A DNA stretch of 64,000 bases from Candidatus Tiamatella incendiivivens (GTDB taxonomy: Archaea; Thermoproteota; Thermoprotei_A; Sulfolobales; Acidilobaceae), in the NCBI GenBank assembly GCA_015522635.1, contig WALW01000010.1, forward strand, positions 14,640 through 78,639, given 5' to 3'. Both the position numbers and the translations under genes were made by a program. The notes beneath the pieces are model-generated. The model did no database searches. It had not been told where the DNA came from and saw nothing but the letters and a program-made list of their open reading frames with translations. Positions 31,278-45,623 of the stretch are shown one piece after another; the stretch's first letter is position 1; every line of letters begins with the position of its first letter.

Positions 31278-32521
31278 AGGAGAAGGTAGACCTTGTCATA
31301 TATAACGTAGGGGAACTAGTAACATTCAATAATACCGTTCCTGGAGATGTATCTGAGGAGAATGCTGGGATACTAAGGGACGCGTCTATAGCGGTGAAAA
31401 ACGGGGTAATATGGGATGTGGGTGATACTGATGAGCTGCTTGGAAAATACGTGGGAGAACTAGTAGATGCTCAAGGCAACCTTGTTACTCCAGGGTTAAT
31501 AGATACACATACCCACATGGTTTTCGCTGGAAGCCGGGAGGACGAATTTGAGTATAAAATAATGGGTTTGAGCTATGAGGAAATCCTAGGAAAGGGAGGC
31601 GGTATTTATAGGACTGTTAACGCTACCCACCAAGCCACAGTAGACGAGCTTGTCTTGAGGGGGCTAGAGATTCTAGGTGAAATGATTCAGCATGGATCAA
31701 CAGTAGTTGAGATCAAGGGAGGATACGGTCTTGACTTGGATGGGGAAATTAAAATAATGGAAGCTGCTAATATAATTTCCACAAAAACTCCTGCGGGAAT
31801 AATTCCGACAATGCAAGCCCATGTAATTCCATGTGAATATAAGAATGACCGGAAAGCATACATAGATTACTATGTAAACAAAATGCTAGTAGAGGCGTCG
31901 GAAAGAAAACTGGCTGTGTACTCTGACGTCTTCTGCGACAAAGGAGCATTCACACCCAGTGAAACCAAGTATATACTAGAGGAGAGCCTCAAACTAGGAT
32001 TCAAACTAAGGATCCATGCAGACCAGCTCGCATATATAGGCTGTAGCAAGATAGCAGGGGATCTTCCCGTAGATGCCATGGATCACTTAGACTATATGCC
32101 ACCAGAGAATGCTAGGATATTAGCTCATAAGGGTGTTGCAGCCGGATTGACCCCTACGTCTGAACTAGCTATGTTCTCAACGGGGCATCCGCCGGTTGAG
32201 GAGTTAAGGAAATTGAAAGTCCCTATCGCGTTGGGAACGGATTATAACCCTAATAACATGACACCTAACATCCAACTGGTAATGGATTTAGCGACATACA
32301 AGTACAGATTAACTCCCTTAGAAGCCCTAGCCGGTGCTACGGTAAATGCTGCATACAGTCTGAGGATCCATGATTCCAGAGGCAGGATTAGGAAAGGATA
32401 TAGAGCAGATATCGTGATCTGGAGGATTCCAAGTCACAGGTGGATAGGGTATCTGTGGGGAGTGAATAAGGTTGAAAAAGTCTATGTATCTGGAAAAGAG
32501 GTATGGAGGAGGAATTATTGA
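31274..32521 (+). CDS. hutI: Imidazolonepropionase
   Basis: [49 protein letters not shown]. Confidence 0.85.
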
Positions 32522-34236
32522 CTTTTCTTCTTATCCATATATTCTATGTAAGGTAGCTTTACACCCTTCTCGCGGGCTATCCTTATAGACTTCTCGTAAC
32601 CCGCGTTTGCATGTCTCATTATACCGCTCCCAGGGTCAGTAGTGAATACTCTCCCGGCACGGATGTCCATTTCTTCACTTCCATCAAGCACAACGCTTAA
32701 TCCTGCGTGAATACTGTAACCTACGCCGACTCCGCCACCATGGTGTACTGCAACCCAGGTTGCTCCCGCTACAGCATTCAGCAGAGCATTGAGGAGAGGC
32801 CAATCCGCTATAGCATCACTACCATCCTTCATTCCCTCCGTCTCTCTATACGGGCTTGCGACACTACCACTATCCAAGTGGTCTCTACCTACCCATACCG
32901 GCCCTGAGAGCTCTCCACGTCTTACCATGTTATTAACTATTTTAGCCCACCTGCCCCTCTCACCATATCCAAGCCAGCATACTCGGGCGGGTAGTCCTTG
33001 GAATTTAACGTATTTACGGGCTTTCCCAATCCACCTAGTTAGCTCTTTATTATAGCTGAACTCGCTGAGTATCATGTCATCTATCTTGTATATATCATTG
33101 GGGTCTCCGACGAGGCTCGTCCACCTGAATGGGCCTCTTCCTTCCTCGAATAACGGTCTAATATATGCTACAACGAAGCCAGGGTACTCGAATGCATCCT
33201 TGAACCCTGCATCGTACGCTCTTTTCCTTATATTGTTCCCATACTCGAATGCAATACTTCCACGCCTCTTCATCTCAACAATCGCTTCCACTTGCTTCTC
33301 CATGCTCTCCATACTCATCTCAGTATACTTCTCCGGGTTCTCTTCCCTCAGCACTGCTGCTTCCCCAACAGTGAGGCCTTCCGGTACGTATGCGAGAGGA
33401 TCGTGTGCAGGGGTCTGGTCAGTAACTATATCTGGTATGATGGCATTCTTAACAAGCTGATAGTAAACTGTCGCAGCGTTCCCTAGCAAGCCTATGCTGA
33501 GAGGCTCCCTTTTCTCCTTCGCTTTAAACGCCATATCTAGTGCTTTGTCTAGGCTATCCGTCCAAGTATTAAGCTGGCTCAGCTTTAACCTTCTCTCAAT
33601 CATTCTTTTATCGACTTCGACATCAATCACGACACCACCATTCATAGTTACTGCTAACGGTTGAGCACCGCCCATTTCCCCTAATCCTGCTGTTAAAACT
33701 AACTTGCCTTCCAGGGTTCCATCATAATGGGACTTGGCTACTGTAGCGAACGTCTCGTATGTTCCTTGAAGTATTCCCTGCGTTCCTATATAGTTCCAGC
33801 TGCCAGCAGTCATTTGCCCATACATTATAAGGCCTTTTGCCTCCAACTCTCTGAAGTACTCCCAAGTAGCCCATTTAGGTACAAGGTTACTGTTAGCTAT
33901 GAGTACTCTTGGCGAATGCCTGTGCGTCCTGAATATTCCTGCTGCACGGCCGCTTTGGACGAGCAGAGTCTCATCATCTTCCAAGGATAGAAGGGCTTCA
34001 ACTATTGCCTCGAAATCACCCCAGCTTCTAACTGCCCTCCCAGTCCCACCGTATACTATAAGGTTCTTAGTGTCCTTAGCGACCATAGGGTCTAGTACAT
34101 TGAATAACATACGGAGAGCTCCTTCTATCTGCCAACTGGCAGTGTGGAGTTCAGGTCCAGTGATTATATTTACTGTCCTGGCTTCAGGGTCATAGAATCC
34201 TTGTGAGATGAGGTCTTCTAATGTTGAGTGTGGCAA
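32515..34236 (-). CDS. hutU: Urocanate hydratase
   Basis: 573 aa with [54 protein letters not shown] start. Confidence 0.9.
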
Positions 34237-34242
34237 GAATTA

Positions 34243-34266
34243 TCACCAATAATAGATTATCGGTGA
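34243..34266. promoter_or_regulatory. 11-2-11 near-perfect palindrome TCACCAATAAT-AG-ATTATCGGTGA just upstream of the hutU start
   Basis: Read directly: one mismatch between the arms. It lies 7-30 nt upstream of the hutU TTG, between an AAAATATAAT TATA-like element and the start codon. Confidence 0.35.
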
Positions 34267-34304
34267 CTTGGAGAATTATATTTTTGTGAAAGGTAGTTGG
34301 GGAA

Positions 34305-35240
34305 TTATTTCCGGTTTTCTTTAAGTGAGAGGCAGACTGTGTCACCGGCTAACTCGTCTAGTATATATAGCAGGTCTTCTGTTTTAGCTTTGAGGTCAGG
34401 GTATCTCTCTGCATTTTCAGCCATGAGGTTGTTTACCTTCCTCCTTATCCCTTGGTATAAATGTATTCTTTTAAGGCTCTCTGACAAGTAGCTTCCTACT
34501 GCTTCCCTGAACGCTATGATAGTTTTACTAATTATAGACCACGCCGTTTCGTCTCCCTGGTATCTAGCTGCTATCCAGGCTAGACCTGACATAATTCTCG
34601 GGAGAACGCCGAGTATTGATGAAGCGGAGTGCCTGGACATTCTGTCTCCCTCTCTTACAGATGTTTGCGAGCATGTTTTGTTTATTGATAATCTATAGAA
34701 GTTGTGGAGCCTGTCTAGGGTTCCGAGTGTTTCCTCTATTCTATTATTGTCTACTCTACCCGTTTCATACGAGTCTCTTATCGTCTCGACTAGGTTCTGG
34801 TATTCTACGAATATTCTCCTAAGATATTTCTGCGGATCTGTTCCATCGTCTCTGAATCCTATTACGACGGTATTATACTCTTCCCGCACGCCTGCTACAT
34901 AAGATAGTTTTTCAGCGATTCCAATTATATCCTCCGGCTTCTGATAGCTGGCGGCATACTCTATTCTTATAGAATTATACCCATTCAAATACGCGCACTT
35001 AATCATCCTTTCCAAACCAAGCTCTTTAACGTTCTTGGTATACTTTGTAGTTACCTGCTCCTTAATACAAGGCTTCCTACTGCTTCCAGGTAATATCTTC
35101 AAGTGGCCTCCTTCATCCACCATGTATATAGGATCCCCAGGCTTCAGATTGTTCTTCCTAGCCCAGTTTTTGGGAAGCGTAACGACCAAGCTACTGCTAC
35201 CCAGTCTCTGTATTTTCCTCGTTTCAACCACGAGTGTCAA
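34305..35240 (-). CDS. AbrB/SpoVT-domain + PhoU-like regulator
   Basis: The N-terminus RKIQRLGSSSLVVTLPKNWARKNNLKPGDPIYM looks like a SpoVT/AbrB swapped-hairpin, followed by ~250 aa of helical PhoU-like repeats. This architecture is common in archaea. Confidence 0.55.
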   Translation of the reverse strand: MTLVVETRKIQRLGSSSLVVTLPKNWARKNNLKPGDPIYMVDEGGHLKILPGSSRKPCIKEQVTTKYTKNVKELGLERMIKCAYLNGYNSIRIEYAASYQKPEDIIGIAEKLSYVAGVREEYNTVVIGFRDDGTDPQKYLRRIFVEYQNLVETIRDSYETGRVDNNRIEETLGTLDRLHNFYRLSINKTCSQTSVREGDRMSRHSASSILGVLPRIMSGLAWIAARYQGDETAWSIISKTIIAFREAVGSYLSESLKRIHLYQGIRRKVNNLMAENAERYPDLKAKTEDLLYILDELAGDTVCLSLKENRK

Positions 35241-35311
35241 GGCTTATTCCCAAGTTACCATTGTAGCTCTACAAATAAAAGTTTAACTCATGTTAAATAT
35301 CTAATAGAGAA

Positions 35312-36208
35312 CTAAAAACTCTCCCATCCACCCGAGCCTTCGAAACCAGATAATACAACACCTGGCTCTCCCTTCCCGGCAAGACCCACAACCCTACAAG
35401 CCCACATACCAGAAGCGAACCCGCTACAGTAACCGAGAAAATCATCTACACAATCATTAGAAACCAATAGAAACAAGTTGTAATCCTCCCCAACACTAAG
35501 CTTTCTCCAATCACCATCAGCAACAGACAAAGCTTCCTCGTCAAACCACAAATCGCTAACAACTAATCCAACCCCAGAACCCTCAGCTAGAAACCTCAGC
35601 GAATATAGGAAACCATCACTATTATCAATAACAGCCCTCACACACTTATGGGAAACTACGTAAGGAATCCAACTAGGAATAACTGGTCTCACACTCCACC
35701 CCATCACACTTGGAAAATCCTCAACGGACAAGCCTTCCTTATAGATATAATATGCAGCACTACCCAATCCAATAGAACCAAGCTGAATAACGGCGTCTCC
35801 AGGAGAACCTCCACTCCTATCTAAGAGCCTTCCAGCTAAACTTTTTCCTACAGCAAAAACATCTATCCAAGCATCACAACTGCACCTATTGGTATCCCCG
35901 CCAACAAGTTTACCTCCATAGAAACCAACTGCTTCCCTAATCCCACGAGTTAATTCCTCGGCATTCTCCCGTGATCCCACACCTATAGAGGCAAGATAGA
36001 AGACTGGAAGACCACCAGAGGAATATACATCCGATATAGCCGACGTAACAGCCTTCCACCCTAGATCCTCTAAGGACATCCAAGGATACAATGCTTCCTC
36101 AGCAGAGTAACCGTCGACTTTGAACATCCAGCCAGACTCGTAGTAGGCGTCTGCATCTGGAATACTCAACTCTCTTAACAACCTGTATATGAACTCATGC
36201 TCACTCAA
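35312..36208 (-). CDS. thiL: AIR-synthase-related protein, ThiL-like (thiamine-monophosphate kinase)
   Basis: DLGWKAVTSAISDVYSSGGLP and YGGKLVGGDTN match the PurM/ThiL fold signatures, and the 298-aa size fits. Confidence 0.55.
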   Translation of the reverse strand: MSEHEFIYRLLRELSIPDADAYYESGWMFKVDGYSAEEALYPWMSLEDLGWKAVTSAISDVYSSGGLPVFYLASIGVGSRENAEELTRGIREAVGFYGGKLVGGDTNRCSCDAWIDVFAVGKSLAGRLLDRSGGSPGDAVIQLGSIGLGSAAYYIYKEGLSVEDFPSVMGWSVRPVIPSWIPYVVSHKCVRAVIDNSDGFLYSLRFLAEGSGVGLVVSDLWFDEEALSVADGDWRKLSVGEDYNLFLLVSNDCVDDFLGYCSGFASGMWACRVVGLAGKGEPGVVLSGFEGSGGWESF

Positions 36209-36373: not shown

Positions 36374-36964
36374 GTGAAACACATGAAGAACAAGAAAATG
36401 GGAGCAATCGTTCCATTGTTACTACTTGCAGTCTTGGCTGTAGGTATGTTCGGTGGAGCAATGGCTCTCTGGTGGGAAAGACTCAACGTCGATGTAACCG
36501 TTAACACAGGATCATTAGACGCTCAATTAAGCGTTGAAGGCTCTGGTGATAACGAAATAGCCTTAGCTCAAGCAGCAGGTGAAGATGACCCAACAGTCAA
36601 AAATGTATCATACATAACTTGTACACTGGCTGAAGATGGTAATAGCATAGACATTGTAGTAGAAAACGCTTACCCTAGTATAACATACTACTGTGACATA
36701 AACCTAGAGAATACTGGTACAATACCCTTCAAGGTATACGGAACACCTACGATTGAAGGCAACATAACTAGTGTCTTAGCAAATGATAGTGGATTAGTGA
36801 ATGGTACGATCTATGATGGATTACAGATGCACCCTGGTGACATAGTATACGACACAATAGTTATACACTTAACAAACGATGCTCTAGAGAACTCAGTCTA
36901 CACTGGACATATGAACATAACCGTCGAACAGTGGAACGAATACCCTGCAACACCCCCTAGCTAA
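36374..36964 (+). CDS. Secreted TasA/camelysin-like protein with SipW-cognate-type signal peptide (paralogue 1)
   Basis: The N-terminus has a basic n-region, h-region LLLLAVLAVGMFGG, then AMALWWERLNVDVTVNTGSLD. Internal INLENTGTIPFK, C-terminal NITVEQWNEY, and 5 N-x-S/T sequons. The start could instead be ATG 36383 or 36398. Confidence 0.7.
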   Translation: MKHMKNKKMGAIVPLLLLAVLAVGMFGGAMALWWERLNVDVTVNTGSLDAQLSVEGSGDNEIALAQAAGEDDPTVKNVSYITCTLAEDGNSIDIVVENAYPSITYYCDINLENTGTIPFKVYGTPTIEGNITSVLANDSGLVNGTIYDGLQMHPGDIVYDTIVIHLTNDALENSVYTGHMNITVEQWNEYPATPPS

Positions 36965-37037
36965 TGCTAGGACATTGAGGTGAACTATTAATACTATGAG
37001 CCTGGGAAACCTGGGCTCTATTCCAAATATGGATTAG

Positions 37038-37772
37038 GTGAAAAATGAAATGAATAAAAATGAGAGAAAAGCCGCTCTACCACTAGGCTTACCGCTACTA
37101 CTAGCGCTTATACTAGCATCGATCGGCGGAGCATCAGCATTATGGTATAAAACCATGACGACAGATGTAACCGTTCATACAGGCGAGCTCGACTGGGAAT
37201 TCAGGAACAATACAGTATTCGACTCAGATCCTTGTGCGGATCCACTAGGAAATAATATGACCTGGCCTGACTCTAACGCGTTTCCTCCAAACTATAATGT
37301 AGTTATAGCTCCGGAGGGTAAGGATGTTGGATGTACAGGAATCCACTTAGCAGACATGGATGGCGACGGCGACTATGATACATTGAATGTGACACTAAAT
37401 AATGTGTACCCTTACTATGCAACTGAAGTAGACTTTAGAGTATGGAATATAGGGACTATACCGCTGAAAATATGGAGAATACAAGTCATACTAGACAACG
37501 GTACGATATACGAGTTCACTGAAGAGAACCCTAACCAGGTAGAAAATGAAGGACTATACTTAGATCTAAACAATGATACAAAACCTGACGTGCTCTTCCT
37601 ATGGGGAGACAATTTCGGGAACCAGCTTGAAACTGGGCAAAATGCAGATATCAGTCTACACATAGTAGTACTACAAACGGCCCCTCAGGGTGCAACACTG
37701 CACTTCATGATAGGATTAGACGCGGTTCAATGGAACGAATATAATGAAGTAGTCCCTCAATCGGGAACATAA
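37038..37772 (+). CDS. Secreted TasA/camelysin-like protein with SipW-cognate-type signal peptide (paralogue 2)
   Basis: LLLALILASIGGASALWYKTMTTDVTVHTGELD, FRVWNIGTIPLK, LDAVQWNEY. These are the same three motifs as in 36374..36964, with a larger insert. Confidence 0.7.
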   Translation: MKNEMNKNERKAALPLGLPLLLALILASIGGASALWYKTMTTDVTVHTGELDWEFRNNTVFDSDPCADPLGNNMTWPDSNAFPPNYNVVIAPEGKDVGCTGIHLADMDGDGDYDTLNVTLNNVYPYYATEVDFRVWNIGTIPLKIWRIQVILDNGTIYEFTEENPNQVENEGLYLDLNNDTKPDVLFLWGDNFGNQLETGQNADISLHIVVLQTAPQGATLHFMIGLDAVQWNEYNEVVPQSGT

Positions 37773-37789
37773 TCCGAAGAGGGATTAAA

Positions 37790-38398
37790 ATGAACCCTTT
37801 TTTAAAATCAATACCGGTTTATTCGCTTAAACTAGGCTTTCTTTTTGTTATTGTTATTCTAACATTAACTGTTATACCGGGAGCTTCAAGTCTTTGGTAT
37901 GAGAAGTTACACACTAACATAACAGTGAAAACAGGGGATTGGAGTCATCCAAGATCGAAGGGATATTGGTGCCATGCACTATCCTCGAGCCTCTGCGGAT
38001 GCCACGGTAATCATGGCAATAATAATGCATTTCCAACGTATTCGCAGCTTACAAATTATTTACGGGATATAGGAAATAGATCCAATGTATTTACATTCAA
38101 TGGAACTGACTTTGAGAACGTAAAAACTGCTATTCATATACTTCAGTGCTGTAATACAGGATGTAATGCCTGGAACCATAATTCAATGGAGAATAAGTTG
38201 AAAGCACAGCTTCTAGCAGTTTGGCTGAACGTAGTATCGGGCTATGGTGATGGCTACAAGCTAGATCTAGGCAACACTACAGTGCTGACTGGAGAAGAGA
38301 TAATAAATATGTCAGAGACCGCTCTTCTGAATAATAATACACCGAGTTATGAGTCATTGAAGAACATCTGTGAGGAATACAATACTAGGTGGGAATAA
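37790..38398 (+). CDS. Cys/His-rich secreted protein with the same signal-peptide type
   Basis: VIVILTLTVIPGASSLWYEKLHTNITVKTGDWS, then WCHALSSSLCGCHGNHGNNN and QCCNTGCNAWNH. It lacks the N-x-G-T and QWNEY motifs. Confidence 0.55.
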   Translation: MNPFLKSIPVYSLKLGFLFVIVILTLTVIPGASSLWYEKLHTNITVKTGDWSHPRSKGYWCHALSSSLCGCHGNHGNNNAFPTYSQLTNYLRDIGNRSNVFTFNGTDFENVKTAIHILQCCNTGCNAWNHNSMENKLKAQLLAVWLNVVSGYGDGYKLDLGNTTVLTGEEIINMSETALLNNNTPSYESLKNICEEYNTRWE

Positions 38399-39567
38399 CA
38401 TTGAGGAAACCCTTAGCCTTCAATTCCACTCCTTTCAATATTTTTCAGAATTCCAAGTTTAATTATAGTTCATCACTCCTTATACTGGGAGTACTATTCT
38501 ATCCCCTGCAAGCTTTCATAATCCCGCAATCCCTACCCATATGGCTAATTCAACCCGTGAATGCGTTGGTATGGTTCACGCTAGGGATCCTATCTATATT
38601 ATACCTTAGACAGTTGAAAATAACGTATACCACTTCATATACAATCATATCACTGATTAGTGGAGTAGTATACATGCTAATCTATTTCACCCTGGGATCT
38701 TTTATGGGAAGCATAGGCAGAAACCCTCTCGCACTAACACCCGTATCAATAGCTATTAACACAGTTTGGGCTATAAGCATAGGATTTGGAGCTGAGTCGT
38801 TTAGAGCAGTCCTTTTAGCATTAACTAAGAGGAAGTCACTCATGATAGGACTAACGTCTCTAATGTTCACTGCAGTAATGATACCATTAATGTCCATCCC
38901 CGAAAACATGATGACGGAAAATGCGGTGAAAATGGTTGGAGGAAAATTCCCAATATTTGCCATATTCTTGATAGCAGGGATCTTCAATTACATGGGAGGA
39001 CTCAATTCGGGTCTCGGATTTCTAACAGCCGCAATGCTAGGTAAAACCCTAATACCTGTGTTGCCTAATTTGAACTGGATAGAAGCTTCATTTACAGCTA
39101 TAATAGCTGTAATTACAGTCTACATAGTTGCCTCGAGGAGCTTTCCTTCAGTGGCAAGTGATATGGAGCGCTCCGATTACGGTAAGCTGATTCTAGGGCT
39201 TGTTTTCGTCGGCCTGATATGGCTTAGTAATGGTTTACTTGGATATCAAGTCGTTGTAGTAACGAGCGGTAGCATGAGGCCTGGGATCGATGTAGGTGAC
39301 CTAGCGATAGTTAAGCTATCTCAAAGCGACTATTCTGCTGGAGATGTTATCCTCTTTAGAATGAATAATGGATATGTGTTACATAGAATACATGATGTAA
39401 GTAAGGTAGATGGAGCAACGTATATTCATACAATAGGAGATGCTAACGGAGAAGTTGATCCGTGGGAAGTGAGTTCGAACCAAGTTGTTGGCAATATGAT
39501 TTTCAAGGTACCAAAGCTTGGCTGGCTAACTATATGGTTTAAGAATTTAGCTTCGAGGTTTGCCTAA
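38389..39567 (+). CDS. Polytopic membrane domain (~8 TM) fused to a Sec11/SipW-type signal peptidase I domain
   Basis: The C-terminal ~125 aa read VVTSGSMRPGIDVGDLAIV (Ser box), GYVLHRIH (His box), GDANGEVDPW. The N-terminal ~260 aa are hydrophobic, with no recognisable catalytic motif and no His at all. It overlaps the upstream gene by 10 nt. Confidence 0.75.
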   Translation: MGITLRKPLAFNSTPFNIFQNSKFNYSSSLLILGVLFYPLQAFIIPQSLPIWLIQPVNALVWFTLGILSILYLRQLKITYTTSYTIISLISGVVYMLIYFTLGSFMGSIGRNPLALTPVSIAINTVWAISIGFGAESFRAVLLALTKRKSLMIGLTSLMFTAVMIPLMSIPENMMTENAVKMVGGKFPIFAIFLIAGIFNYMGGLNSGLGFLTAAMLGKTLIPVLPNLNWIEASFTAIIAVITVYIVASRSFPSVASDMERSDYGKLILGLVFVGLIWLSNGLLGYQVVVVTSGSMRPGIDVGDLAIVKLSQSDYSAGDVILFRMNNGYVLHRIHDVSKVDGATYIHTIGDANGEVDPWEVSSNQVVGNMIFKVPKLGWLTIWFKNLASRFA

Positions 39568-39648
39568 CACGTAATAATAATGCTATAAATATATTTATAA
39601 TGGTTAAATGATAAGTTTTATTAACCATATATTCGGAGGAGCGCATAA

Positions 39649-41034
39649 TTGAATAAATATATTCGAAATTCGATTCTAGGCATTGTCCTAGTAATTACAA
39701 TCACCTCGTTACTCATGATATCTCAAGGTACAAATGCACAACAAGAAGCACAAACAGTAAGAGTAGACGTAGGAACATATCCAATAGATCTACCTGTAAT
39801 TGTTGATGGGGTAATATACACTCCCAGTAAGACAGGTAGACCAGTCTTCTACTGGGACATAGGTAGCGTACACACAATTAGAATAGTGGAACCTGTGTAC
39901 TACGCTGCACCTGGTGCCCGTGTAGTATTTAAAGGATGGAACACCGGTGACACAGGAAAACAACTAACGATAAACGTAACTAGAACAATCTCAATCATAG
40001 GCTTATACCAGCGCCAATACTTCATCGAGGTAACCTCAACATACGGCAACCCTACAGGCTCAGGGTGGTATTCTGAGGGAGCAAGAGTCAATATGAGTGT
40101 GGAAAAGATATTTCCACTAGATCTAGGAGTCAGAGCTGTATTCAAACAATGGACAGGTGGAATAACACCTGAAAATCCTACCAACTTTGTATATGCATTC
40201 GCACCAACTACTATTAAAGCACAATGGACCATAGAATACTATGTAAACCTAACCTCCAACGTGAATGCTAGTCTATCTGGTTCAGGATGGTATGAGAAAG
40301 GGAAGGTTATCAGAATAAATGCTCAAGACAAAGTTAACAAGGACGATAATACGCAATACAGATTTTCTGACTGGAAAGTAGTTAAGGGGAACATAGTTCT
40401 CGATTCGCCTAATAAAAGACAGCAGCTCATATCAGTAAACGAGCCTGTAATGCTGGAAGCCGAATATGACACATACTATTTAGTTAAAGTGCTTTCACCG
40501 TATGGAGCACCACAGCCCCCCGAATACTATAAGAAAGGATCACAAATTCTAATCAACCTAGAGTCTCCAGCTGAGATCAATTCTGGTGTAAGGAAGATCT
40601 TCGTGAAATGGAATACTGGAAGTAAAGCATTACCGTTGAAGATAACTGTAGATAAACCGTTGACATTGGCAGCTATATGGAAGACACAGTACAAGCTAGT
40701 TATTGATTCTAAAGTACCAGCTGTATCAGGTGATGGATGGTATGATGAGAACAGTAAGGCCAAGATCACAGCATACGAGAGTGCCCCATCGAAATTCGGT
40801 TCTAAATACTTGTTCAAGGGGTGGCAGGGAGATTATAAGAGCCTATCAACAACAGGAACTGTTCTAATGGATTCACCCAAGCATATTGTAGCAGTTTGGG
40901 AGAAAAGCTATGCAGGAACCTATGTAAGTATAATAATAGCGGTAGCAGTGATACTGGGATTCTACTATGGATACAAGAGATTTCTATTGCCACGGATTAC
41001 TAAGCATAACGAGGAAATTGAGCCGGTAGAATAG
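39649..41034 (+). CDS. Surface protein: signal peptide, five tandem ~75-90-aa repeats (divergent InlB B-repeat-like), C-terminal TM anchor
   Basis: Repeat landmarks are Y-x-[VL]-x-V...GSGWY-x-x-G...F-K-x-W-x-G: YGNPTGSGWYSEGARV/FKQWTGG, SGSGWYEKGKVI/FSDWKVV, PEYYKKGSQI/FVKWNTG, SGDGWYDENSKA/FKGWQGD. The anchor is YVSIIIAVAVILGFYYGYKRF. Confidence 0.7.
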   Translation: MNKYIRNSILGIVLVITITSLLMISQGTNAQQEAQTVRVDVGTYPIDLPVIVDGVIYTPSKTGRPVFYWDIGSVHTIRIVEPVYYAAPGARVVFKGWNTGDTGKQLTINVTRTISIIGLYQRQYFIEVTSTYGNPTGSGWYSEGARVNMSVEKIFPLDLGVRAVFKQWTGGITPENPTNFVYAFAPTTIKAQWTIEYYVNLTSNVNASLSGSGWYEKGKVIRINAQDKVNKDDNTQYRFSDWKVVKGNIVLDSPNKRQQLISVNEPVMLEAEYDTYYLVKVLSPYGAPQPPEYYKKGSQILINLESPAEINSGVRKIFVKWNTGSKALPLKITVDKPLTLAAIWKTQYKLVIDSKVPAVSGDGWYDENSKAKITAYESAPSKFGSKYLFKGWQGDYKSLSTTGTVLMDSPKHIVAVWEKSYAGTYVSIIIAVAVILGFYYGYKRFLLPRITKHNEEIEPVE

Positions 41035-41038
41035 TGAA

Positions 41039-41395
41039 TCATGTACTCATATCTCCTAGCATCCTTGAACCAATTGTGTATCCTTTTTCTGTGAGCCTAT
41101 AAAGCTTTAGATTGTTTCTAACATAAGCTACTTCTATGAAGCCAGCTGCAACCAATCCTTCAAGGTATTTGATAACATTTTTATGATTCATGTTCACATT
41201 TCTAGCTATCCTTCTCACTGTAAATAAATCAGTTTTTCTATGGTTGTTCATGAATTCTATTATTCTAAGGTAAGGGGTACCCTTGAATAACTCTATTACT
41301 GCAAGTAAGCATGATAATACATGCGTCTCCTTACGGCGCGCGTTTTCAGGAGCCGCTGTCTCATTACATGTAACGTTTAAGTCTATAGTGTTCAA
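41039..41395 (-). CDS. Winged-helix transcriptional regulator (ArsR/MarR-like)
   Basis: 118 aa. RIIEFMNNHRKTDLFTVRRIARNVNMNHKNVIKYLEGLVAAGFIEV followed by a wing YRLTEKG. Convergent with the pilus-like locus. Confidence 0.5.
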   Translation of the reverse strand: MNTIDLNVTCNETAAPENARRKETHVLSCLLAVIELFKGTPYLRIIEFMNNHRKTDLFTVRRIARNVNMNHKNVIKYLEGLVAAGFIEVAYVRNNLKLYRLTEKGYTIGSRMLGDMST

Positions 41396-41824: not shown

Positions 41825-43027
41825 CTAGGATGATTTTACTTCAGGCTTCAATATAATGTAGAGATAATAGATTGCTGATCCAATAAGGAAGGTCATAAAC
41901 CCTGTCGTTAACATCATCACTCCCCGCAGTGTTGCCAGTTGGTTAACGTTTTCTAGAGATAACACTTGAGCTAATACAGGAACCAAGTTCTTAGGAACTA
42001 TCGCTAAGACCCTGGGATCCGTTAGATCCGCAATGAAATATGGGTATTGGCTAAATGCATTTAGATACTCGCCTATTAAAACAGTAAACAGTGCAATCCC
42101 TCCGCCAAATAACATCCACTTACTGATTCCAGCATCCAATGATCCTTTTCTAATAGCGTTATATGCTCCGATGATGATCACGAACTGAATTGCTACAAGG
42201 ATCACCTTGAATATAAATAGCCAGCTCATGTCATAGTGTACTATTCCATCTCCTACCTTCCATCCTAGATTAGCGAAAATGTTGTTAAACTTGTATGCAA
42301 CATTTTGAAGTGAAAACGCGTACCATAGCCCTAGGAACGCCATTATTATTAGGCCAAGTAATACATATGGTACTGTTTTCTTAACGAATAATAGAGAAAC
42401 TCTCTTCATTTCTTCATCGCTTGATTTTACGTATCTATAAGCATATGCTGATGCCAACGCAAATGTCCCAGCAGTAAGAGCTCCTATAATACTCTTCAGA
42501 TATAATGGTGGTAACGTGGGATTAGCGAGAGCCTTCATTAAATCGAGCCTAGGTACACCGTCTTCGAAGTATAATCCTTGTGGAGTGTTAAGGAAGGCGA
42601 AAACAGCTCTAAAACCGAGAGGTATCAGTAAAAACGTCAATGCCATAAAGAACCCTATACTCAAATGAGTACTAGGAGCCCACCTATCCCAGCCATAGTA
42701 GAATGCTGCTATAGTGAAGAAATTGAGAACTATAGACAATATTGCTATGGCAAATGGTGACATTGCTATATTACCGGCCAGTCCTATGAAACCAGGATAA
42801 AAACTCAGTAGGAACACGGTGAAAGCAGTAGCAAATACTCCGGCTAGAGCATAAGTTGCCGCAAGCATCCTAGTTAATTCTCTTGCAACACGCTCTAACC
42901 CCTTATCATCCTCCTTAAGCGACCTCCACCTAAGATACGGTGCAAGTATTCCAAGTGTTATGCCCATGTTGACAAGGACGATGTGGAACCCGAAGACAAA
43001 GGCCAGCCAGAATACAGACTCCATCAC
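41825..43027 (-). CDS. Cytochrome bd-family oxidase second subunit, CydA-like paralogue (CydA')
   Basis: 400 aa. FHIVLVNMGITLG and YYGWDRW mirror the HWAILQYVLGLP and YYGWNRF blocks of the upstream subunit. No GR-x-PW C-terminal motif. 4-nt overlap with cydA. Confidence 0.65.
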   Translation of the reverse strand: MMESVFWLAFVFGFHIVLVNMGITLGILAPYLRWRSLKEDDKGLERVARELTRMLAATYALAGVFATAFTVFLLSFYPGFIGLAGNIAMSPFAIAILSIVLNFFTIAAFYYGWDRWAPSTHLSIGFFMALTFLLIPLGFRAVFAFLNTPQGLYFEDGVPRLDLMKALANPTLPPLYLKSIIGALTAGTFALASAYAYRYVKSSDEEMKRVSLLFVKKTVPYVLLGLIIMAFLGLWYAFSLQNVAYKFNNIFANLGWKVGDGIVHYDMSWLFIFKVILVAIQFVIIIGAYNAIRKGSLDAGISKWMLFGGGIALFTVLIGEYLNAFSQYPYFIADLTDPRVLAIVPKNLVPVLAQVLSLENVNQLATLRGVMMLTTGFMTFLIGSAIYYLYIILKPEVKSS

Positions 43028-44697
43028 TTGGCCAGCACCTCCTTACTACTAGGTACCCACAGTATTCTCCACACTGCATATACTAGTATTGTTAACATTG
43101 CAACGAAGTAAAGCGCTACTAACACCACCTCCCATACGGGGGCAGGGTTAAATGTATGGGCTACATCAGGTGTCATAATACCATATATAGTCCATGGTTT
43201 TCTACCGATCTCTCTGACTGCCCAACCAAGATATGATACTAGTTGGACTACAATTATACCTACTAGTCCAAGCTTATATAACCACCTAGATGTCCTTGTC
43301 TCTTTATTTCTCCACGCATAATAAGCTATTCCGAGTCCATAGAATCCTAATAGTATTGCTAGAAATATCTTAGTATAATAGAGGTAGTGAACTAGTATAG
43401 GCGGTTTGCATGTATGGATTGCTGGATTCGTGGCTGCCTTGAATTGGCAATAATTGGGATCAATAGTATCATAGTTTGGCATGTGAGCATTCGTAGAACC
43501 GTAAGCTAGGAACTCCATGAACTTGTCCAGATGGAATGTACGGGTTATACTAAAGTGCTGAGTTGTCACTCCTTCTATAGCAGAGAGTTTCTCTGGATTG
43601 TAGTGTGCAATAACTGACCCCATTTCGTGGCCGAATACGAAGCCTTGGAGTGCTATGGCTATTACAGCAAAATATGCTGAATACTTCAGAAACTTCTTAG
43701 CATATTTCTTGTATTCCCCGTTTTCTATTTTGCCTGTAAGCCTGAACGCGTAGACTCCCATAACAGTGAAGCTAGACGTGGTTAACGCAGCTCCTATAGC
43801 ATGCATAATGCTTGCTGCATACACTGGGGACTCGAACGTGACCTTATAGACTCCTTCACGGTCAATCGTGTTGGTGAGTATCTTATCTACTATTACCTTT
43901 ACAGGAGTATTTAGCAAATTATTCAATTGATCCTGACTCATATGAGATACTGTTGTCTTGTTTACAACTATCATTAGGATACTATCCTTGACTCTCACAC
44001 CATGCCAGGATTCCCACGCCAGTCTTTGAACTATTCTTACAGGCATTTGAACCACGATGCTGTCCTGCGTTGCTCCAGAAACGGTCATGCCTAATTTCAT
44101 TAGTGTCGTTATATTCAATAATGGTACCATGTCGTCGGGGACGTAGAGGTCTAGCTTCGGGTATCCCTGTGAATATAACCATTGACCGGTAGCCGGGTCA
44201 TATGCTGGGTGTATACCAGTTGGAGCCACCATATACGCATTAACACTCACTATCTGCGTCCCAGAGAACCATGCACCGCTGAATGCTAAGAGAGCTACTA
44301 TAACTAGTGCCCATGGTTTAAACCTATTCCACCCGTAGTAGAGCATGTAAACGAATATTACTTCCATCATGAAGGCGAAGATTTCAACATATAAAGGGAA
44401 GTAGATATATCTTCCAGCAGCCTCTGTTAGGTTGGGCCATAATAGTAGTAACCCGAACTCTGCCCCTGTACCTGTAGCTGCTCCAACTGCAAATACTAGT
44501 ATGAATCCTTTCGTTAGTGTTAGCGCTATCTTCTTCCATGTTTCATCTTTCTTTATCGCGTATATTACTAGTGATATGAATGCCATGAACGGTAGTCCGA
44601 GGACGTACTGGAGAATTGCCCAGTGGACTTCAATCCCTATCATTGATAAGACTCTATCGGAAGCTGCAGGATAGCTTAGCCATTGGCCTATAACCAC
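43024..44697 (-). CDS. cydA: Cytochrome bd-type quinol oxidase subunit I
   Basis: 557 aa with His in TM1 (VHWAIL), GAEFG, EVIFVYMLYYGWNRF, SIMHAIGAAL, GHEMG, REIGRKPWTIYG. Recognised by comparison with E. coli CydA as remembered. Confidence 0.8.
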   Translation of the reverse strand: MVIGQWLSYPAASDRVLSMIGIEVHWAILQYVLGLPFMAFISLVIYAIKKDETWKKIALTLTKGFILVFAVGAATGTGAEFGLLLLWPNLTEAAGRYIYFPLYVEIFAFMMEVIFVYMLYYGWNRFKPWALVIVALLAFSGAWFSGTQIVSVNAYMVAPTGIHPAYDPATGQWLYSQGYPKLDLYVPDDMVPLLNITTLMKLGMTVSGATQDSIVVQMPVRIVQRLAWESWHGVRVKDSILMIVVNKTTVSHMSQDQLNNLLNTPVKVIVDKILTNTIDREGVYKVTFESPVYAASIMHAIGAALTTSSFTVMGVYAFRLTGKIENGEYKKYAKKFLKYSAYFAVIAIALQGFVFGHEMGSVIAHYNPEKLSAIEGVTTQHFSITRTFHLDKFMEFLAYGSTNAHMPNYDTIDPNYCQFKAATNPAIHTCKPPILVHYLYYTKIFLAILLGFYGLGIAYYAWRNKETRTSRWLYKLGLVGIIVVQLVSYLGWAVREIGRKPWTIYGIMTPDVAHTFNPAPVWEVVLVALYFVAMLTILVYAVWRILWVPSSKEVLAK

Positions 44698-44849
44698 GAG
44701 TTACACCTCTCCTTTATAACTCTTGGTATAGAAAGCTCTGTTTATAATATATGGCATGGCGGTTATATATAAAAATTGTTATATGGTAAAATTATTTTAT
44801 TTTAATATAAACTCTGAAATAATGTTATTAGTTAATACAATATATAAAG

Positions 44850-45623
44850 TTAAAAATTCTTACAAACAACAGTAAAACCTCTAAGCAGCCAAGAATCATT
44901 CATGTACTTGCACTTGGAAAGCTCCTCAGCTTCTAACAATACATCTTCTCTTAAATCATACGTCATACCACAATAATTAAACACGGAATCAATCACGTCA
45001 AGTATCCTAATCCTAGGGTTAACCCAAGCTAAATTACCTGGGTTATACTTAACAGGATCAACTCGCCCTCCCTTACTAGGATCCCCTGGAAAAACTAGAA
45101 CCTCTCTCATGAGATCTATGTCAGAGGATACAAGCATGGTCCCATGAAATAACCATCCAAGCCTATCAGAATATGAAGCTGCACCAGAGACCTTATACCT
45201 CTCCACAATAACATCATTACCGTTTCTGATACCAGCTGAAAAGCCGAGATCACTGAGAACGCTAGTTAGGAGTGATAGGCCCTCATTCATTATACTCGAA
45301 ACACTAGTAAACCCCGATGCACTATGGTAAATAGAGAAGTTCATGTTGCCAAAATCATGGAAAACCGTTCCACCCCCCGAGATCCTCCTGGTAACAGGAA
45401 TGCCATGTTCCTTAACTGCCTCCAGATTTACATCCTTCTCAATATTAGAGAATCTTCCTAGGACAATAACAGGAGGGTCAATCCATATTCTGAGCAAAGG
45501 TGAAGGCAGAATACCTTTCTTCACAGAATAAACTAATACCTCCTCTAATGCAATATTAGTTAAAGGACTCCTGCTGACGCTTTCCCTATCTACTATACAT
45601 GAGTACAAGGTATTCTTTGTCAT
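44850..45623 (-). CDS. Lipoate-protein ligase/octanoyltransferase family protein (LplA/LipM/LipL-like), paralogue 2
   Basis: VIVLGRFSNIEKDVN, RRISGGGTVFHDFGNMNFS, ERYKVSGAA (catalytic Lys block). 257 aa comprising the catalytic domain only. Confidence 0.7.
   Translation of the reverse strand: MTKNTLYSCIVDRESVSRSPLTNIALEEVLVYSVKKGILPSPLLRIWIDPPVIVLGRFSNIEKDVNLEAVKEHGIPVTRRISGGGTVFHDFGNMNFSIYHSASGFTSVSSIMNEGLSLLTSVLSDLGFSAGIRNGNDVIVERYKVSGAASYSDRLGWLFHGTMLVSSDIDLMREVLVFPGDPSKGGRVDPVKYNPGNLAWVNPRIRILDVIDSVFNYCGMTYDLREDVLLEAEELSKCKYMNDSWLLRGFTVVCKNF

What the first reader, a model, noticed from the sequence alone, without database searches (positions are those of the whole stretch)
36374..41395. 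TasA/camelysin-like fibre (bundling-pilus-like) locus with its own signal peptidase
Five co-directional, tightly packed genes. Three consecutive ORFs begin with the same unusual N-terminus: a basic n-region, a hydrophobic core, then G-[GA]-[AS]-x-[AS]-LW-[WY]-[EK]-x-[LM]-x3-[VI]TV-x-TG. The three instances are ALWWERLNVDVTVNTGSLD, ALWYKTMTTDVTVHTGELD and SLWYEKLHTNITVKTGDWS. This is the layout of SipW-cognate signal peptides (B. subtilis TasA, as I recall it: ..WAAFNDIKSKDATFASGTLDL). The first two proteins also share two further TasA landmarks. One is the strand F-x-[FV]-x-N-x-G-[ST]-[LI]-x-x-K (INLENTGTIPFK and FRVWNIGTIPLK versus TasA FQFENNGSLAIK). The other is a C-terminal QWN strand (VEQWNEY and AVQWNEY versus TasA EATQWNG). 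Gene 4 carries a Sec11/SipW-type peptidase domain, gene 5 is a repeat-rich anchored surface protein, and a wHTH regulator lies convergent. TasA-like archaeal bundling pili have, to my knowledge, been described structurally only for Pyrobaculum. This locus differs in having two TasA-like paralogues plus a Cys/His-rich third substrate, a fused peptidase and a B-repeat anchor protein, so it may be an uncharacterised variant of an extracellular fibre/biofilm system.
Basis: partly seen in the sequence, partly recalled or inferred. Interest (0 to 1): 0.85.

Follow-up and report, generated by a model that had tools for sequence, protein, structure and literature searches.

The report
AbpX-type archaeal fibre gene cluster
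This is a real six-gene cluster in an uncultured hot-spring archaeon that most likely builds a TasA-like extracellular protein fibre with its own signal peptidase, but this kind of cluster (the "abpX locus") was already described in 2025–2026, so it is a new example rather than a new system.

Summary
In detail: five co-directional genes (36374-41034) plus a convergent wHTH gene, with every quoted motif present. g1 and g2 are homologues of Pyrodictium abyssi AbpX, a solved TasA-superfamily fibre subunit (PDB 9SJ2; family profile E=3.6e-10). The shared "unusual N-terminus" is a Sec signal peptide ending in A-x-A, followed by the mature donor strand (L-W-[WY]-[EK]...TV.TG.LD). In AbpX that strand inserts into the next subunit.

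- **g3:** the same signal peptide and donor strand, then a helical domain in place of the beta core. It is probably a groove-filling cap or nucleator.
- **g4:** a Sec11/SipW-type Ser/His peptidase behind at least 8 membrane segments. In 42 of 45 genomes surveyed this fusion lies beside AbpX-like genes.
- **g5:** a membrane-anchored protein with five B-repeats, in the position that DUF5305 holds in most other loci.

The novelty claim is not: a 2025 Nat Commun paper and a January 2026 preprint describe AbpX and archaeal abpX loci (major subunit, minor subunit, tip, 10-TM peptidase, accessory protein, regulators), including in Desulfurococcales.

Local twists are g5 replacing DUF5305 and the un-annotated g3 helical module, which also occurs in over 100 families of secreted proteins. 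Foldseek gave no significant match for g1 (TasA fibre E=0.06). No assembly was modelled or tested here.

The parts
36374..36964 (+). g1: AbpX-like subunit, probably the major fibre subunit. Signal peptide is residues 1-31 (…GGAMA|), donor strand residues 32-49 (LWWERLNVDVTVNTGSLD, nt 36467-36520), beta core about residues 50-186. The likely true start is the ATG at 36383.
   Evidence: PDB 9SJ2 AbpX: E=5.9e-5 with the single sequence and 3.6e-10 with the family profile. Mature pI is 4.05 with 14.5% Asp/Glu. In the AF2 model the core has pLDDT about 90 and the donor strand is below 50. W2, E4 and D18 of AbpX are conserved. 29 homologues were found, mostly from Desulfurococcales MAGs.
36998..37018 (+). 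GC-rich hairpin (GAGCCUGGG-AAA-CCUGGGCUC) in the g1-g2 spacer. It may be a transcript stabiliser or attenuator that sets the major:minor subunit ratio.
   Evidence: The spacer folds at -19.6 kcal/mol, z=-2.4. Hairpins at the same position, with different sequence, occur in the L001 and L015 spacers (z=-3.1 and -2.5). The function is inferred only.
37038..37772 (+). g2: AbpX-like paralogue, probably a minor subunit. Signal peptide is residues 1-34 (…GGASA|), donor strand LWYKTMTTDVTVHTGELD (nt 37140-37193, Lys at mature position 4). The beta core carries acidic insert loops DMDGDGDYD and DLNNDTKPD.
   Evidence: BLASTP against g1 E=2e-12. AbpX E=2.3e-3. Family HMM E=1.4e-58. Mature pI 4.05 with 15.2% Asp/Glu. 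FG-GAP_3-like loop, sub-threshold at E=6e-4. Orthologues hold the same position in L001, L015, L050 and L003.
37790..38398 (+). g3: donor-strand-only protein. Signal peptide is residues 1-34 (…PGASS|), donor strand LWYEKLHTNITVKTGDW (nt 37892-37942), then a helical module at residues 54-202 (PRSKGYW…KLKAQLLAVWLN…EEYNTRWE) with no beta core. It is a probable groove-filling cap, nucleator or adaptor (the preprint's 'tip' protein).
   Evidence: The AbpX HMM matches only residues 18-50, and the module HMM matches residues 54-202. The AF2 model is helical from residue 57, with pLDDT about 90 over residues 80-200. There is no Foldseek, PDB, Pfam or NCBIfam match. The module is conserved in Desulfurococcales/Pyrodictiaceae, Bathyarchaeia and Chloroflexi loci and in 116 representative clusters.
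38389..39567 (+). g4: dedicated signal peptidase I. A polytopic N-terminal domain (residues 1-291, at least 8 hydrophobic segments) is fused to a Sec11/SipW-type catalytic domain (residues 292-392; Ser295, His332, Asp351, Asp357). It overlaps g3 by 10 nt.
   Evidence: TIGR02228 E=3.8e-19, above its cut-off. Peptidase_S24 E=2.6e-5. SEC11C E=3.4e-4. The catalytic residues, and E136, R139, P223-x-L-P226 and W230, are invariant in 40 homologues. 42 of 45 genome loci with this fusion have AbpX-like genes beside it.
39649..41034 (+). g5: bitopic surface protein with an N-terminal signal/TM segment (residues 4-28), five B-repeat units of about 71-79 aa each, a C-terminal TM segment (residues 420-442) and a short basic tail. 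It is a candidate membrane anchor or assembly platform, in the position that DUF5305 holds in other abpX loci. A TATA-like AT-rich stretch and a GGAGG lie upstream.
   Evidence: Flg_new_2 E=1.3e-7. Repeat motif F.xW.xG at residues 94, 165, 239, 318 and 389. It lies directly after the peptidase in the window and in L001/L026, L002, L004, L015 and L050. A g5-like gene lies inside a Bathyarchaeia AbpX cluster, L052. It is not DUF5305. Upstream sequence.
41039..41395 (-). g6: small winged-helix protein, convergent with g5 and 4 bp from it. It is a candidate locus regulator.
   Evidence: HTH_45 E=4.4e-7, above its cut-off. Homologues lie convergent at the same position in L001/L026, L002, L015 (E about 1e-16), L050/L051 and L052.

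Best explanation
The locus is an AbpX-type (TasA-superfamily) extracellular fibre system of an uncultured Desulfurococcales archaeon.

**Proposed mechanism.**
1. g1, g2 and g3 are exported by Sec. Each stays tethered by its signal peptide until the locus-encoded polytopic Sec11-type peptidase g4 cuts after the small-residue site (AMA, ASA, ASS). *Shown:* the motifs and the genomic linkage. *Inferred:* that g4 is the enzyme that cuts them.
2. Cleavage frees an N-terminal amphipathic strand, L1-W2-[WY]3-[EK]4…, ending in TG.LD.
3. As in the solved AbpX fibril, the strand of one subunit inserts into the open groove of the next subunit's beta core (donor-strand complementation). No chaperone is needed, and the process is possibly helped by Ca2+ held by Glu4, Asp18 and an acidic loop. 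*Inferred* from homology; the Ca ligands are only partly conserved.
4. g1 is the bulk subunit. It comes first in the operon, is followed by a hairpin and is closest to AbpX. g2 is a minor subunit.
5. g3 has a donor strand but no groove, so it can only fill the one empty groove at a fibre end. This makes it act like TapA, as a nucleator or cap, and places its helical module at that end. *Inferred.*
6. g5, a membrane-anchored protein with five B-repeats, takes the place of the DUF5305 peptidase-accessory protein and may tether or organise assembly at the membrane. This is the weakest inference.
7. g6 regulates the operon.

The expected product is an acidic, glycosylated fibre that contributes to a biofilm matrix or to cell-cell cohesion.
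For: - **Homology to a solved donor-strand fibre subunit:** g1 against PDB 9SJ2 AbpX gives E=5.9e-5, and the family profile that includes g2 gives E=3.6e-10 over positions 31-172.
- **Residue-level match to the AbpX donor strand:** W2, E4 and D18 are conserved in g1. Their structural roles are given in the preprint.
- **Composition:** mature g1 and g2 have pI 4.05 and about 15% Asp/Glu, matching the preprint's AbpX-family signature.
- **Model:** the AF2 monomer has a confident beta core and a disordered donor strand, as the preprint reports for AbpX monomers.
- **Peptidase:** the archaeal SPase I model scores above its cut-off, SEC11 is matched, and Ser/His/Asp are invariant. 42 of 45 loci with this fusion, across archaea and bacteria, have AbpX-like genes adjacent.
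- **Synteny:** the five genes plus the wHTH gene are kept together in Pyrodictium sp. DIMAG01, a Pyrodictiaceae MAG and other Desulfurococcales MAGs.
- **g3 architecture:** the HMM coordinates show strand plus module with no core, and the model is helical.
- **Published locus description:** major subunit, minor subunit, tip, 10-TM SPase I, accessory protein and transcription factors, with 5-6-gene loci listed for Zestosphaera, Ignisphaera and Desulfurococcus. The peer-reviewed paper notes the adjacency of SPase I and paralogues.
Against: - Nothing was expressed, and no oligomer could be modelled here.
- Foldseek of the g1 model against the PDB gave no hit at E<=1e-3. TasA fibre 8AUR scored E=0.062, TMq 0.37, and AbpX did not appear in the list, possibly because the fold library stops in April 2026.
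- Pfam PF12389 (TasA/camelysin) does not hit g1 or g2. Only 5 of 19 family members give sub-threshold hits.
- The AbpX loop ligands D46, D48 and E52 are not positionally conserved, and g2 has Lys at position 4. Ca2+ dependence is therefore uncertain.
- My hydropathy count gives about 8 membrane segments for g4, not the 10 the preprint reports.
- g5 has no demonstrated link to the peptidase or the fibre beyond gene position.
- The P. abyssi reference locus has none of g2, g3 or g5.
Confidence: 0.8

Rival explanations
1. g1 and g2 are secreted or envelope-associated monomeric beta-sandwich proteins, for example cell-surface binding proteins or camelysin-like enzymes. In this reading they do not polymerise, and the shared N-terminus is only a recognition tag for the dedicated peptidase.
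For: No fold match reached significance. The Ca ligands are only partly conserved. Nothing here shows assembly.
Against: The conserved N-terminal segment lies after the A-x-A site. It has the alternating hydrophobic pattern and the W2/E4/D18 residues of the structurally proven AbpX donor strand. The monomer model leaves that strand disordered and the core incomplete. g3 carries the strand without any core, which makes sense only if the strand docks into another protein. There is no protease motif or Pfam protease hit.
Confidence: 0.08
2. g4 is the cell's general signal peptidase that happens to lie here, and g5 and g6 are unrelated neighbours. In that case only g1-g3 form the functional unit.
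For: g5 has its own AT-rich upstream region and a GGAGG. It belongs to a very broad repeat-protein family (177 hits with many architectures). It is absent from most abpX loci. No second signal peptidase was searched for outside the window.
Against: The polytopic fusion is next to AbpX-like genes in 42 of 45 loci across several phyla. g3 and g4 overlap by 10 nt. g5 together with the convergent wHTH gene follows the peptidase in every Desulfurococcales/Pyrodictiaceae locus seen, and recurs inside a Bathyarchaeia AbpX cluster. The preprint also calls this peptidase dedicated.
Confidence: 0.1
3. g3 is not a cap or nucleator. It is a cargo: a secreted helical effector or adhesin that uses the donor strand merely to be displayed anywhere along the fibre, or on g5.
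For: The same helical module sits at the C-terminus of many unrelated secreted multidomain proteins (PKD, FG-GAP, glycosidase domains) and behind full AbpX cores in Bathyarchaeia. It therefore behaves as a portable functional domain.
Against: A strand-only protein can occupy only a free groove. In a donor-strand polymer free grooves exist only at one end, so 'anywhere along the fibre' is geometrically excluded unless g2 or g5 offers extra grooves. No groove-bearing domain was detected in g5.
Confidence: 0.2

Closest known systems
Pyrodictium abyssi AbpX and the archaeal abpX loci (Sleutel et al., Nat Commun 2025, PMC12518558; bioRxiv 10.64898/2026.01.04.697558; PDB 9SJ2, 9RHP)
   Same: g1 and g2 are sequence homologues. 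They share the mature N-terminus x-W-x-E…TG.LD, a pI of about 4 and about 15% acidic residues. The locus layout is the published one: major subunit, AbpX-like minor subunit, 'tip', multi-TM signal peptidase I, accessory gene and transcription factor, with Desulfurococcales examples listed.
   Different: The P. abyssi locus itself is minimal, with AbpX and the peptidase only. Here the accessory position holds a five-B-repeat bitopic protein rather than DUF5305. The AbpX Ca-loop ligands D46, D48 and E52 are not positionally conserved, and g2 has Lys at position 4. I could not check whether the preprint's Zestosphaera 'SPI-accessory' protein is a g5 orthologue.
Bacillus subtilis tapA-sipW-tasA operon
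   Same: The logic is the same: a fibre subunit polymerising by N-terminal donor-strand exchange, a second secreted protein that contributes only a strand (TapA, compare g3), and a dedicated Sec11-type Ser/His peptidase.
   Different: Pfam PF12389 does not hit g1 or g2. The SipW equivalog model scores 58.8 bits against a cut-off of 190. SipW lacks the polytopic domain of g4. TapA's domain is a beta-sandwich, whereas g3's is helical. The TasA structural match is weak (E=0.062).
Pyrobaculum calidifontis bundling pilus AbpA/AbpB
   Same: An archaeal TasA-superfamily donor-strand pilus, with an accessory secreted protein and a wHTH gene in the operon.
   Different: AbpA has no dedicated peptidase nearby and is more distant from TasA. 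AbpA did not appear in my PDB sequence or fold searches with g1.
Tafi pili of haloarchaea (PNAS 2025, PMC12337348)
   Same: A TasA-superfamily strand-donation pilus, with tip, anchor, regulator and DUF5305 genes in its loci according to the preprint.
   Different: Tafi subunits are exported by Tat, as the paper's title states, whereas g1-g3 have Sec-type signal peptides. The family cluster is different, and DUF5305 is absent here. I did not compare the sequences directly.
Chaperone-usher pili of Gram-negative bacteria
   Same: Subunits are joined by an N-terminal strand inserted into the neighbour's incomplete beta fold, and specialised end subunits are present.
   Different: There is no chaperone or usher gene, and the fold family is different. 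This is a mechanistic analogy only.

Membership tests
AbpX clade of the TasA superfamily (g1, g2) | Significant sequence similarity to P. abyssi AbpX | tested here: met
   g1 E=5.9e-5 and g2 E=2.3e-3 against 9SJ2. The family profile gives E=3.6e-10 over 142 positions.
AbpX clade of the TasA superfamily (g1, g2) | [quoted passage not shown] | tested here: met
   g1: AMA|L-W-W-E. g3: ASS|L-W-Y-E. g2: ASA|L-W-Y-K, aromatic but Lys at position 4. A31 and W33 are invariant in 19 family members. The cleavage itself is inferred.
AbpX clade of the TasA superfamily (g1, g2) | Low pI (about 4) and about 15% Asp/Glu in the mature protein | tested here: met
   g1: pI 4.05, 14.5%. g2: pI 4.05, 15.2%. Criterion taken.
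AbpX clade of the TasA superfamily (g1, g2) | Jelly-roll core resembling the TasA/AbpX structures | tested here: inconclusive
   The AF2 core is beta-rich with pLDDT about 90. However, Foldseek against the PDB gives no hit at E<=1e-3, with TasA fibre 8AUR at E=0.062 and TMq 0.37, and AbpX is not in the list.
AbpX clade of the TasA superfamily (g1, g2) | Ca2+-binding residues of AbpX (E4, D18, D46, D48, E52, E142) | tested here: inconclusive
   E4 and D18 are conserved in g1. E142 aligns with g1 E172 only in the alignment. The D46/D48/E52 loop is not positionally conserved, although acidic loops sit at the same place (AEDGN in g1, DMDGDGDYD in g2).
AbpX clade of the TasA superfamily (g1, g2) | Polymerisation by donor-strand complementation | not testable with these tools
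   No multimer modelling or experiment was available. The monomer model leaves the strand disordered, which is compatible with this feature but is not a test.
Archaeal abpX locus (as defined in bioRxiv 2026.01.04.697558) | Dedicated multi-TM signal peptidase I adjacent to the abpX genes | tested here: met
   g4 has at least 8 hydrophobic segments plus a Sec11-type domain. 42 of 45 loci with this fusion have AbpX-like neighbours. My segment count is 8, not the published 10.
Archaeal abpX locus (as defined in bioRxiv 2026.01.04.697558) | AbpX-like minor subunit and a donor-strand-bearing 'tip' protein | tested here: met
   g2. g3 has strand plus helical module.
Archaeal abpX locus (as defined in bioRxiv 2026.01.04.697558) | DUF5305 (PF17231) peptidase-accessory protein | tested here: not met
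   There is no PF17231 hit for g5 at E<=1, while the positional counterparts in L009 and L005 score 6.9e-37 and 1.2e-33. A DUF5305-like HMM finds it in 31 of 45 loci but nowhere in the 64-kb window. The preprint says this gene is frequent, not universal.
TasA/camelysin family proper (Pfam PF12389, Peptidase_M73) | Match to the PF12389 profile | tested here: not met
   There is no hit for g1 or g2 at E<=1. 5 of 19 family members give sub-threshold hits, the best at E=0.0014.
Sec11/SipW-type (ER/archaeal) signal peptidase I (g4 C-terminal domain) | Profile match, and a Ser/His (not Ser/Lys) catalytic set with the conserved Asp residues | tested here: met
   TIGR02228 scores 69.1 bits against a cut-off of 51.85. 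SEC11C and SEC11A are hit. S295 (SGSMRP), H332 (HR), D351 (GDAN) and D357 are invariant in 40 sequences. The SipW equivalog model NF046067 is below its cut-off (58.8 against 190), so g4 is not SipW itself.
InlB B-repeat / Flg_new_2 proteins (g5) | Match to PF18998 and a repeated unit | tested here: met
   E=1.3e-7, 32 bits against a cut-off of 23.6. Five F.xW.xG units are spaced 71-79 aa apart.

The most novel reading that the evidence does not exclude
Desulfurococcales and Pyrodictiaceae may carry a distinct sub-type of the AbpX system, with two distinguishing parts.

1. The DUF5305 peptidase-accessory protein is replaced by a membrane-anchored five-B-repeat protein (g5) that serves as the cell-side anchor or assembly platform.
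2. The fibre is nucleated or capped by a protein reduced to a bare donor strand plus a helical domain (G[YF]WKHQ…QLLAxWLN…KDICDxxNN).

That domain matched nothing in the Pfam, NCBIfam or PDB searches run here. It also ends more than 100 families of secreted multidomain proteins in bacteria and archaea, so it could be a general matrix- or envelope-docking module.
Probability: 0.3. Interest if true: 0.5.

Novelty: new member of a known kind. Interest (0 to 1): 0.3.

Why it matters
Fibres of the TasA superfamily are emerging as a matrix scaffold shared by bacterial and archaeal biofilms. This locus adds a complete, well-conserved example from uncultured hot-spring Desulfurococcales. It also supports, using 45 genome loci retrieved here with the g4 family, the published claim that a polytopic Sec11-type peptidase travels with AbpX genes across both domains.

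The parts that go slightly beyond the literature I could read are these:
- an un-annotated helical module on the strand-only protein, which recurs widely in secreted proteins;
- the replacement of DUF5305 by a B-repeat anchor protein;
- a positionally conserved hairpin after the major-subunit gene.

None of these changes the picture of how such fibres work. They are leads for whoever studies anchoring and nucleation, which the AbpX authors state are unresolved for P. abyssi.

Tried and rejected
1. **Foldseek of the g1 model against the PDB.** No significant hit. TasA fibre 8AUR ranked ninth at E=0.062, and AbpX entries were not listed. I therefore rest family assignment on sequence profiles, not on fold.
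2. **Foldseek of the g3 model.** Best E=1.0. A broader module profile against PDB sequences gave best E=0.11, to a staphylococcal Emb/Ebh helical repeat. NCBIfam gave nothing. No function could be assigned to the module.
3. **Pfam PF12389 as a direct TasA test.** It fails for g1 and g2.
4. **g5 as the preprint's DUF5305 accessory.** Rejected. g5 also has no PDB sequence hit, and a self-BLAST found no repeats; only the motif scan did.
5. **The idea that the module sits at opposite fibre ends in Desulfurococcales (strand-only) and Bathyarchaeia (core-only).** Dropped. The Bathyarchaeia proteins keep a Cys-rich strand, C-[WTQL]-N-G-G-I-x-I-x-C-x-C, in the same register.
6. **Linkage to the type-IV-pilus-like ATPase/T2SSF cluster seen next to the locus in L001.** It is not conserved in L002, the window or L050.
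7. **The sigma-70 promoter and terminator scan.** It showed no enrichment and does not apply to archaea.
8. **Exact-sequence look-ups.** Those for g1 with the GTG start and for the Aeropyrum g5 homologue found nothing.
9. **The polytopic domain of g4 as a CPBP/Abi-type protease.** I considered this because of the invariant E-x-x-R. There are no conserved His motifs and no Pfam hit, so it was not pursued.

Full report
**1. Observation**

They are tightly packed, with gaps of 73, 17, -10, 81 and 4 bp.

All quoted peptide strings are present. The similarity among the three N-termini is far above chance:
- g1 against g2 gives E=2e-12 over the signal peptide, strand and core.
- g2 against g3 gives E=5e-8 over the N-terminus only.
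- A family HMM hits only these three ORFs in the whole window.

They occur in the same order in mature TasA: residues 1-19, 43-54 and 202-208 of PDB 8AUR.

**2. Source**

g1 is 100% identical to a hypothetical protein of a Desulfurococcales archaeon MAG, annotated from the ATG at 36383. Near-identical contigs show the same synteny on both sides: urocanase, an AbrB-like gene and an AIRS gene upstream, and wHTH, cytochrome bd and LplA genes downstream.

**3. What g1 and g2 are**

Neither protein hits Pfam's TasA/camelysin model. Against PDB sequences, however, g1 hits 'AbpX' of Pyrodictium abyssi (9SJ2) at E=5.9e-5 and g2 hits it at 2.3e-3. A 19-sequence family profile raises this to E=3.6e-10 over nearly the whole mature protein.

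AbpX is a recently solved fibre subunit. A January 2026 preprint shows a cryo-EM fibril in which the N-terminal strand (W2-I12) of one subunit completes the jelly roll of the next. W2 acts as an aromatic clamp, and E4, D18, D46, D48, E52 and E142 bind three Ca2+ ions. The preprint and a 2025 Nat Commun paper both place AbpX in the TasA superfamily.

The conserved N-terminus of the window proteins maps residue for residue onto the mature AbpX N-terminus:
- g1: AMA|L1-W2-W3-E4…G15-S16-L17-D18
- AbpX: Q1-W2-S3-E4…G15-S16-L17-D18

Mature g1 and g2 have pI 4.05 and 14.5-15.2% Asp/Glu, which is the family signature given in the preprint.

The AlphaFold2 model of g1 has a confident beta core (residues 50-186, pLDDT about 90) and a disordered donor strand. 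The preprint reports the same behaviour for AbpX monomers.

Foldseek against the PDB returned nothing at E<=1e-3. The TasA fibre ranked ninth (E=0.062, probability 0.82, TMq 0.37), and AbpX entries were not listed. Family assignment therefore rests on sequence.

The Ca2+ site is only partly conserved. E4 and D18 are kept in g1, but g2 has K4. The D46/D48/E52 loop is replaced by other acidic loops.

**4. g3**

g3 shares the signal peptide and donor strand, but the AbpX HMM stops at residue 50. The rest of the protein is a confidently modelled helical domain. That domain has no neighbour by Foldseek, PDB sequence profile, Pfam or NCBIfam.

Its cysteines and histidines are not conserved in the family. 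The donor strand, a PRSKGYW motif and KLxAQLLAxWLN…EYN are conserved.

The module occurs in three contexts:
- In Bathyarchaeia abpX loci it follows a full AbpX-like core. Those proteins appear to retain a Cys-rich donor-like strand.
- In a Chloroflexi locus it follows a donor strand and a PT linker (hhalign probability 90%, E=1.6e-6).
- An exhaustive profile search found it in 116 representative clusters. Many are 400-1500-aa secreted proteins with PKD, FG-GAP, DUF11 or glycosidase domains, and the module sits near their C-terminus.

A protein with a strand but no groove can only plug the single open groove at one fibre end. I therefore read g3 as a TapA-like nucleator or cap, which is what the preprint calls a 'tip'. 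This is an inference.

**5. g4**

The C-terminal 100 residues are an archaeal/ER-type signal peptidase I:
- TIGR02228 scores above its cut-off.
- SEC11C and SEC11A are hit.
- S295, H332, D351 and D357 are invariant in 40 homologues.

About eight family-conserved hydrophobic segments precede the catalytic domain. With the N-terminus inside the cell, an even number of segments places the catalytic domain outside. The polytopic domain has its own invariant residues: E136, R139, P223-x-L-P226 and W230. The preprint reports ten TM helices for this peptidase class.

A genome-wide scan with a g4 alignment returned 45 loci. They came from Bathyarchaeia, Pyrodictiaceae, Archaeoglobales, Hadarchaeota, Bacillota, Chloroflexota and Bipolaricaulota. 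In 42 of them, one to four AbpX-like ORFs lie beside the peptidase. This is strong support for a dedicated enzyme.

**6. g5 and g6**

g5 has an N-terminal signal/TM segment, five B-repeat units and a C-terminal TM segment with a short tail.

In 31 of the 45 loci the gene near the peptidase is DUF5305-like. Pfam confirms this in examples: 6.9e-37 and 1.2e-33 in bacterial loci, and a sub-threshold 2.3e-5 in L022, which is titled 'uncultured archaeon'.

g5 is not DUF5305, and no DUF5305-like ORF exists in the window. Instead, g5 follows the peptidase in every Desulfurococcales/Pyrodictiaceae locus seen. A g5-like gene with a convergent HTH_45 gene also sits inside a Bathyarchaeia AbpX cluster. 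Its role as an anchor or assembly platform is inferred from position and topology only.

The g6 wHTH gene is conserved in the same convergent position.

**7. Comparison with what is known, and novelty**

The preprint's Fig. 5B, Fig. S16 and Table S3 describe archaeal abpX loci made of AbpX, an AbpX-like minor subunit, a tip protein of variable fold, a multi-TM SPase I, an accessory protein and occasional transcription factors. They list 5-6-gene loci for Zestosphaera, Ignisphaera and Desulfurococcus. The Nat Commun paper already noted that archaeal AbpX homologues are often adjacent to SPase I and to further paralogues.

The window is therefore a new member of a known kind.

What may go beyond the papers I could read:
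- g5 in place of DUF5305;
- the breadth of the g3 helical module;
- a hairpin after the major-subunit gene, conserved in position but not in sequence.

I could not check whether the preprint's Zestosphaera 'SPI-accessory' protein is a g5 orthologue.

**8. Verdict**

The core interpretation is correct, but the motif was mislabelled and the novelty overstated.

I am about 0.8 confident that this is an AbpX-type donor-strand fibre system with a dedicated peptidase. My confidence is considerably lower for the specific roles assigned to g3, g5 and Ca2+.

Noticed in passing
window 37949-38395 (g3 residues 54-202); also L003 10550-11428, L030 8077-8732, P0177, P0183 and others: The helical module has motifs [RS]xG[YF]WKHQ, QLLAxWLNxVSG and KDICDxxNN. 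It has no Pfam, NCBIfam or PDB counterpart. It occurs in 116 representative protein clusters, often at the C-terminus of long secreted proteins carrying PKD, FG-GAP, DUF11 or glycosidase domains, one of which also has a T9SS sorting tail.
   Followed up: partly
window 36998-37018; L001 about 8611-8633; L015 about 5386-5403: A GC-rich hairpin with a 3-nt loop lies in the spacer after the first (major subunit) gene in three orthologous loci (z=-2.4, -3.1, -2.5). It is conserved in position but not in sequence. It could set the major:minor subunit ratio.
   Followed up: partly
window 38389-39261 (g4 residues 1-291): The polytopic domain of the peptidase has residues invariant in 40 homologues from archaea and bacteria (G110, E136, R139, P223-x-L225-P226, W230). 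This suggests a function beyond membrane anchoring, such as substrate or donor-strand handling.
   Followed up: partly
window 37335-37361 and 37557-37583 (g2 residues about 100-108 and 174-182); L001 8692-9411; L003 8572-9165: The minor-subunit paralogue carries DxDxDG-type acidic loops, with a sub-threshold FG-GAP_3 hit at E=6e-4. They are DMDGDGDYD and DLNNDTKPD here, DTDSDGDMD and DLDGDGLYD in L001, and DLDGDGKPD in L003. These may be extra Ca2+ sites absent from g1.
   Followed up: no
L003 10550-11428; L006 8608-9495; L008 8845-9771; L017, L018, L021, L025: The Bathyarchaeia proteins that combine an AbpX core with the module start, after the signal peptide, with a Cys-rich strand C-[WTQL]-N-G-G-I-x-I-N-C-Y-C-x-C-D. 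This looks like a disulfide-capable variant of the donor strand.
   Followed up: partly
L042 7594-8691; L036 7906-8228 (Chloroflexota): Directly after the peptidase lie proteins with a canonical donor strand (TLWAEVLTVSGEIETGEF), then a Pro/Thr-rich linker and an unrelated domain. These are further strand-only adaptors with different cargo.
   Followed up: no
L001 2866-7819 (Pyrodictium sp. DIMAG01): The AbpX cluster is divergent from a T2SSE ATPase, two T2SSF genes and a KaiC-like ATPase (type-IV-pilus/archaellum-like machinery). This adjacency is absent in L002, the window and L050, so it is probably coincidental.
   Followed up: partly
window 32515-36208 and 41825-45623: The flanking genes are urocanate hydratase, a 311-aa protein with an AbrB/MazE-type N-terminal domain, an AIRS-domain protein, two cytochrome bd oxidase subunits and lipoate-protein ligase genes. 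The same flanks occur in a related MAG (L050). An AbrB-like gene next to a TasA-like operon recalls AbrB repression of tapA-sipW-tasA in Bacillus (from my own knowledge), but the adjacency is not conserved in L001 or L002.
   Followed up: no
window 36374-36400: g1 can start at GTG 36374, ATG 36383 or ATG 36398. Public annotation and the orthologues (MKNKKMG…, MENRKIG…) favour 36383.
   Followed up: partly
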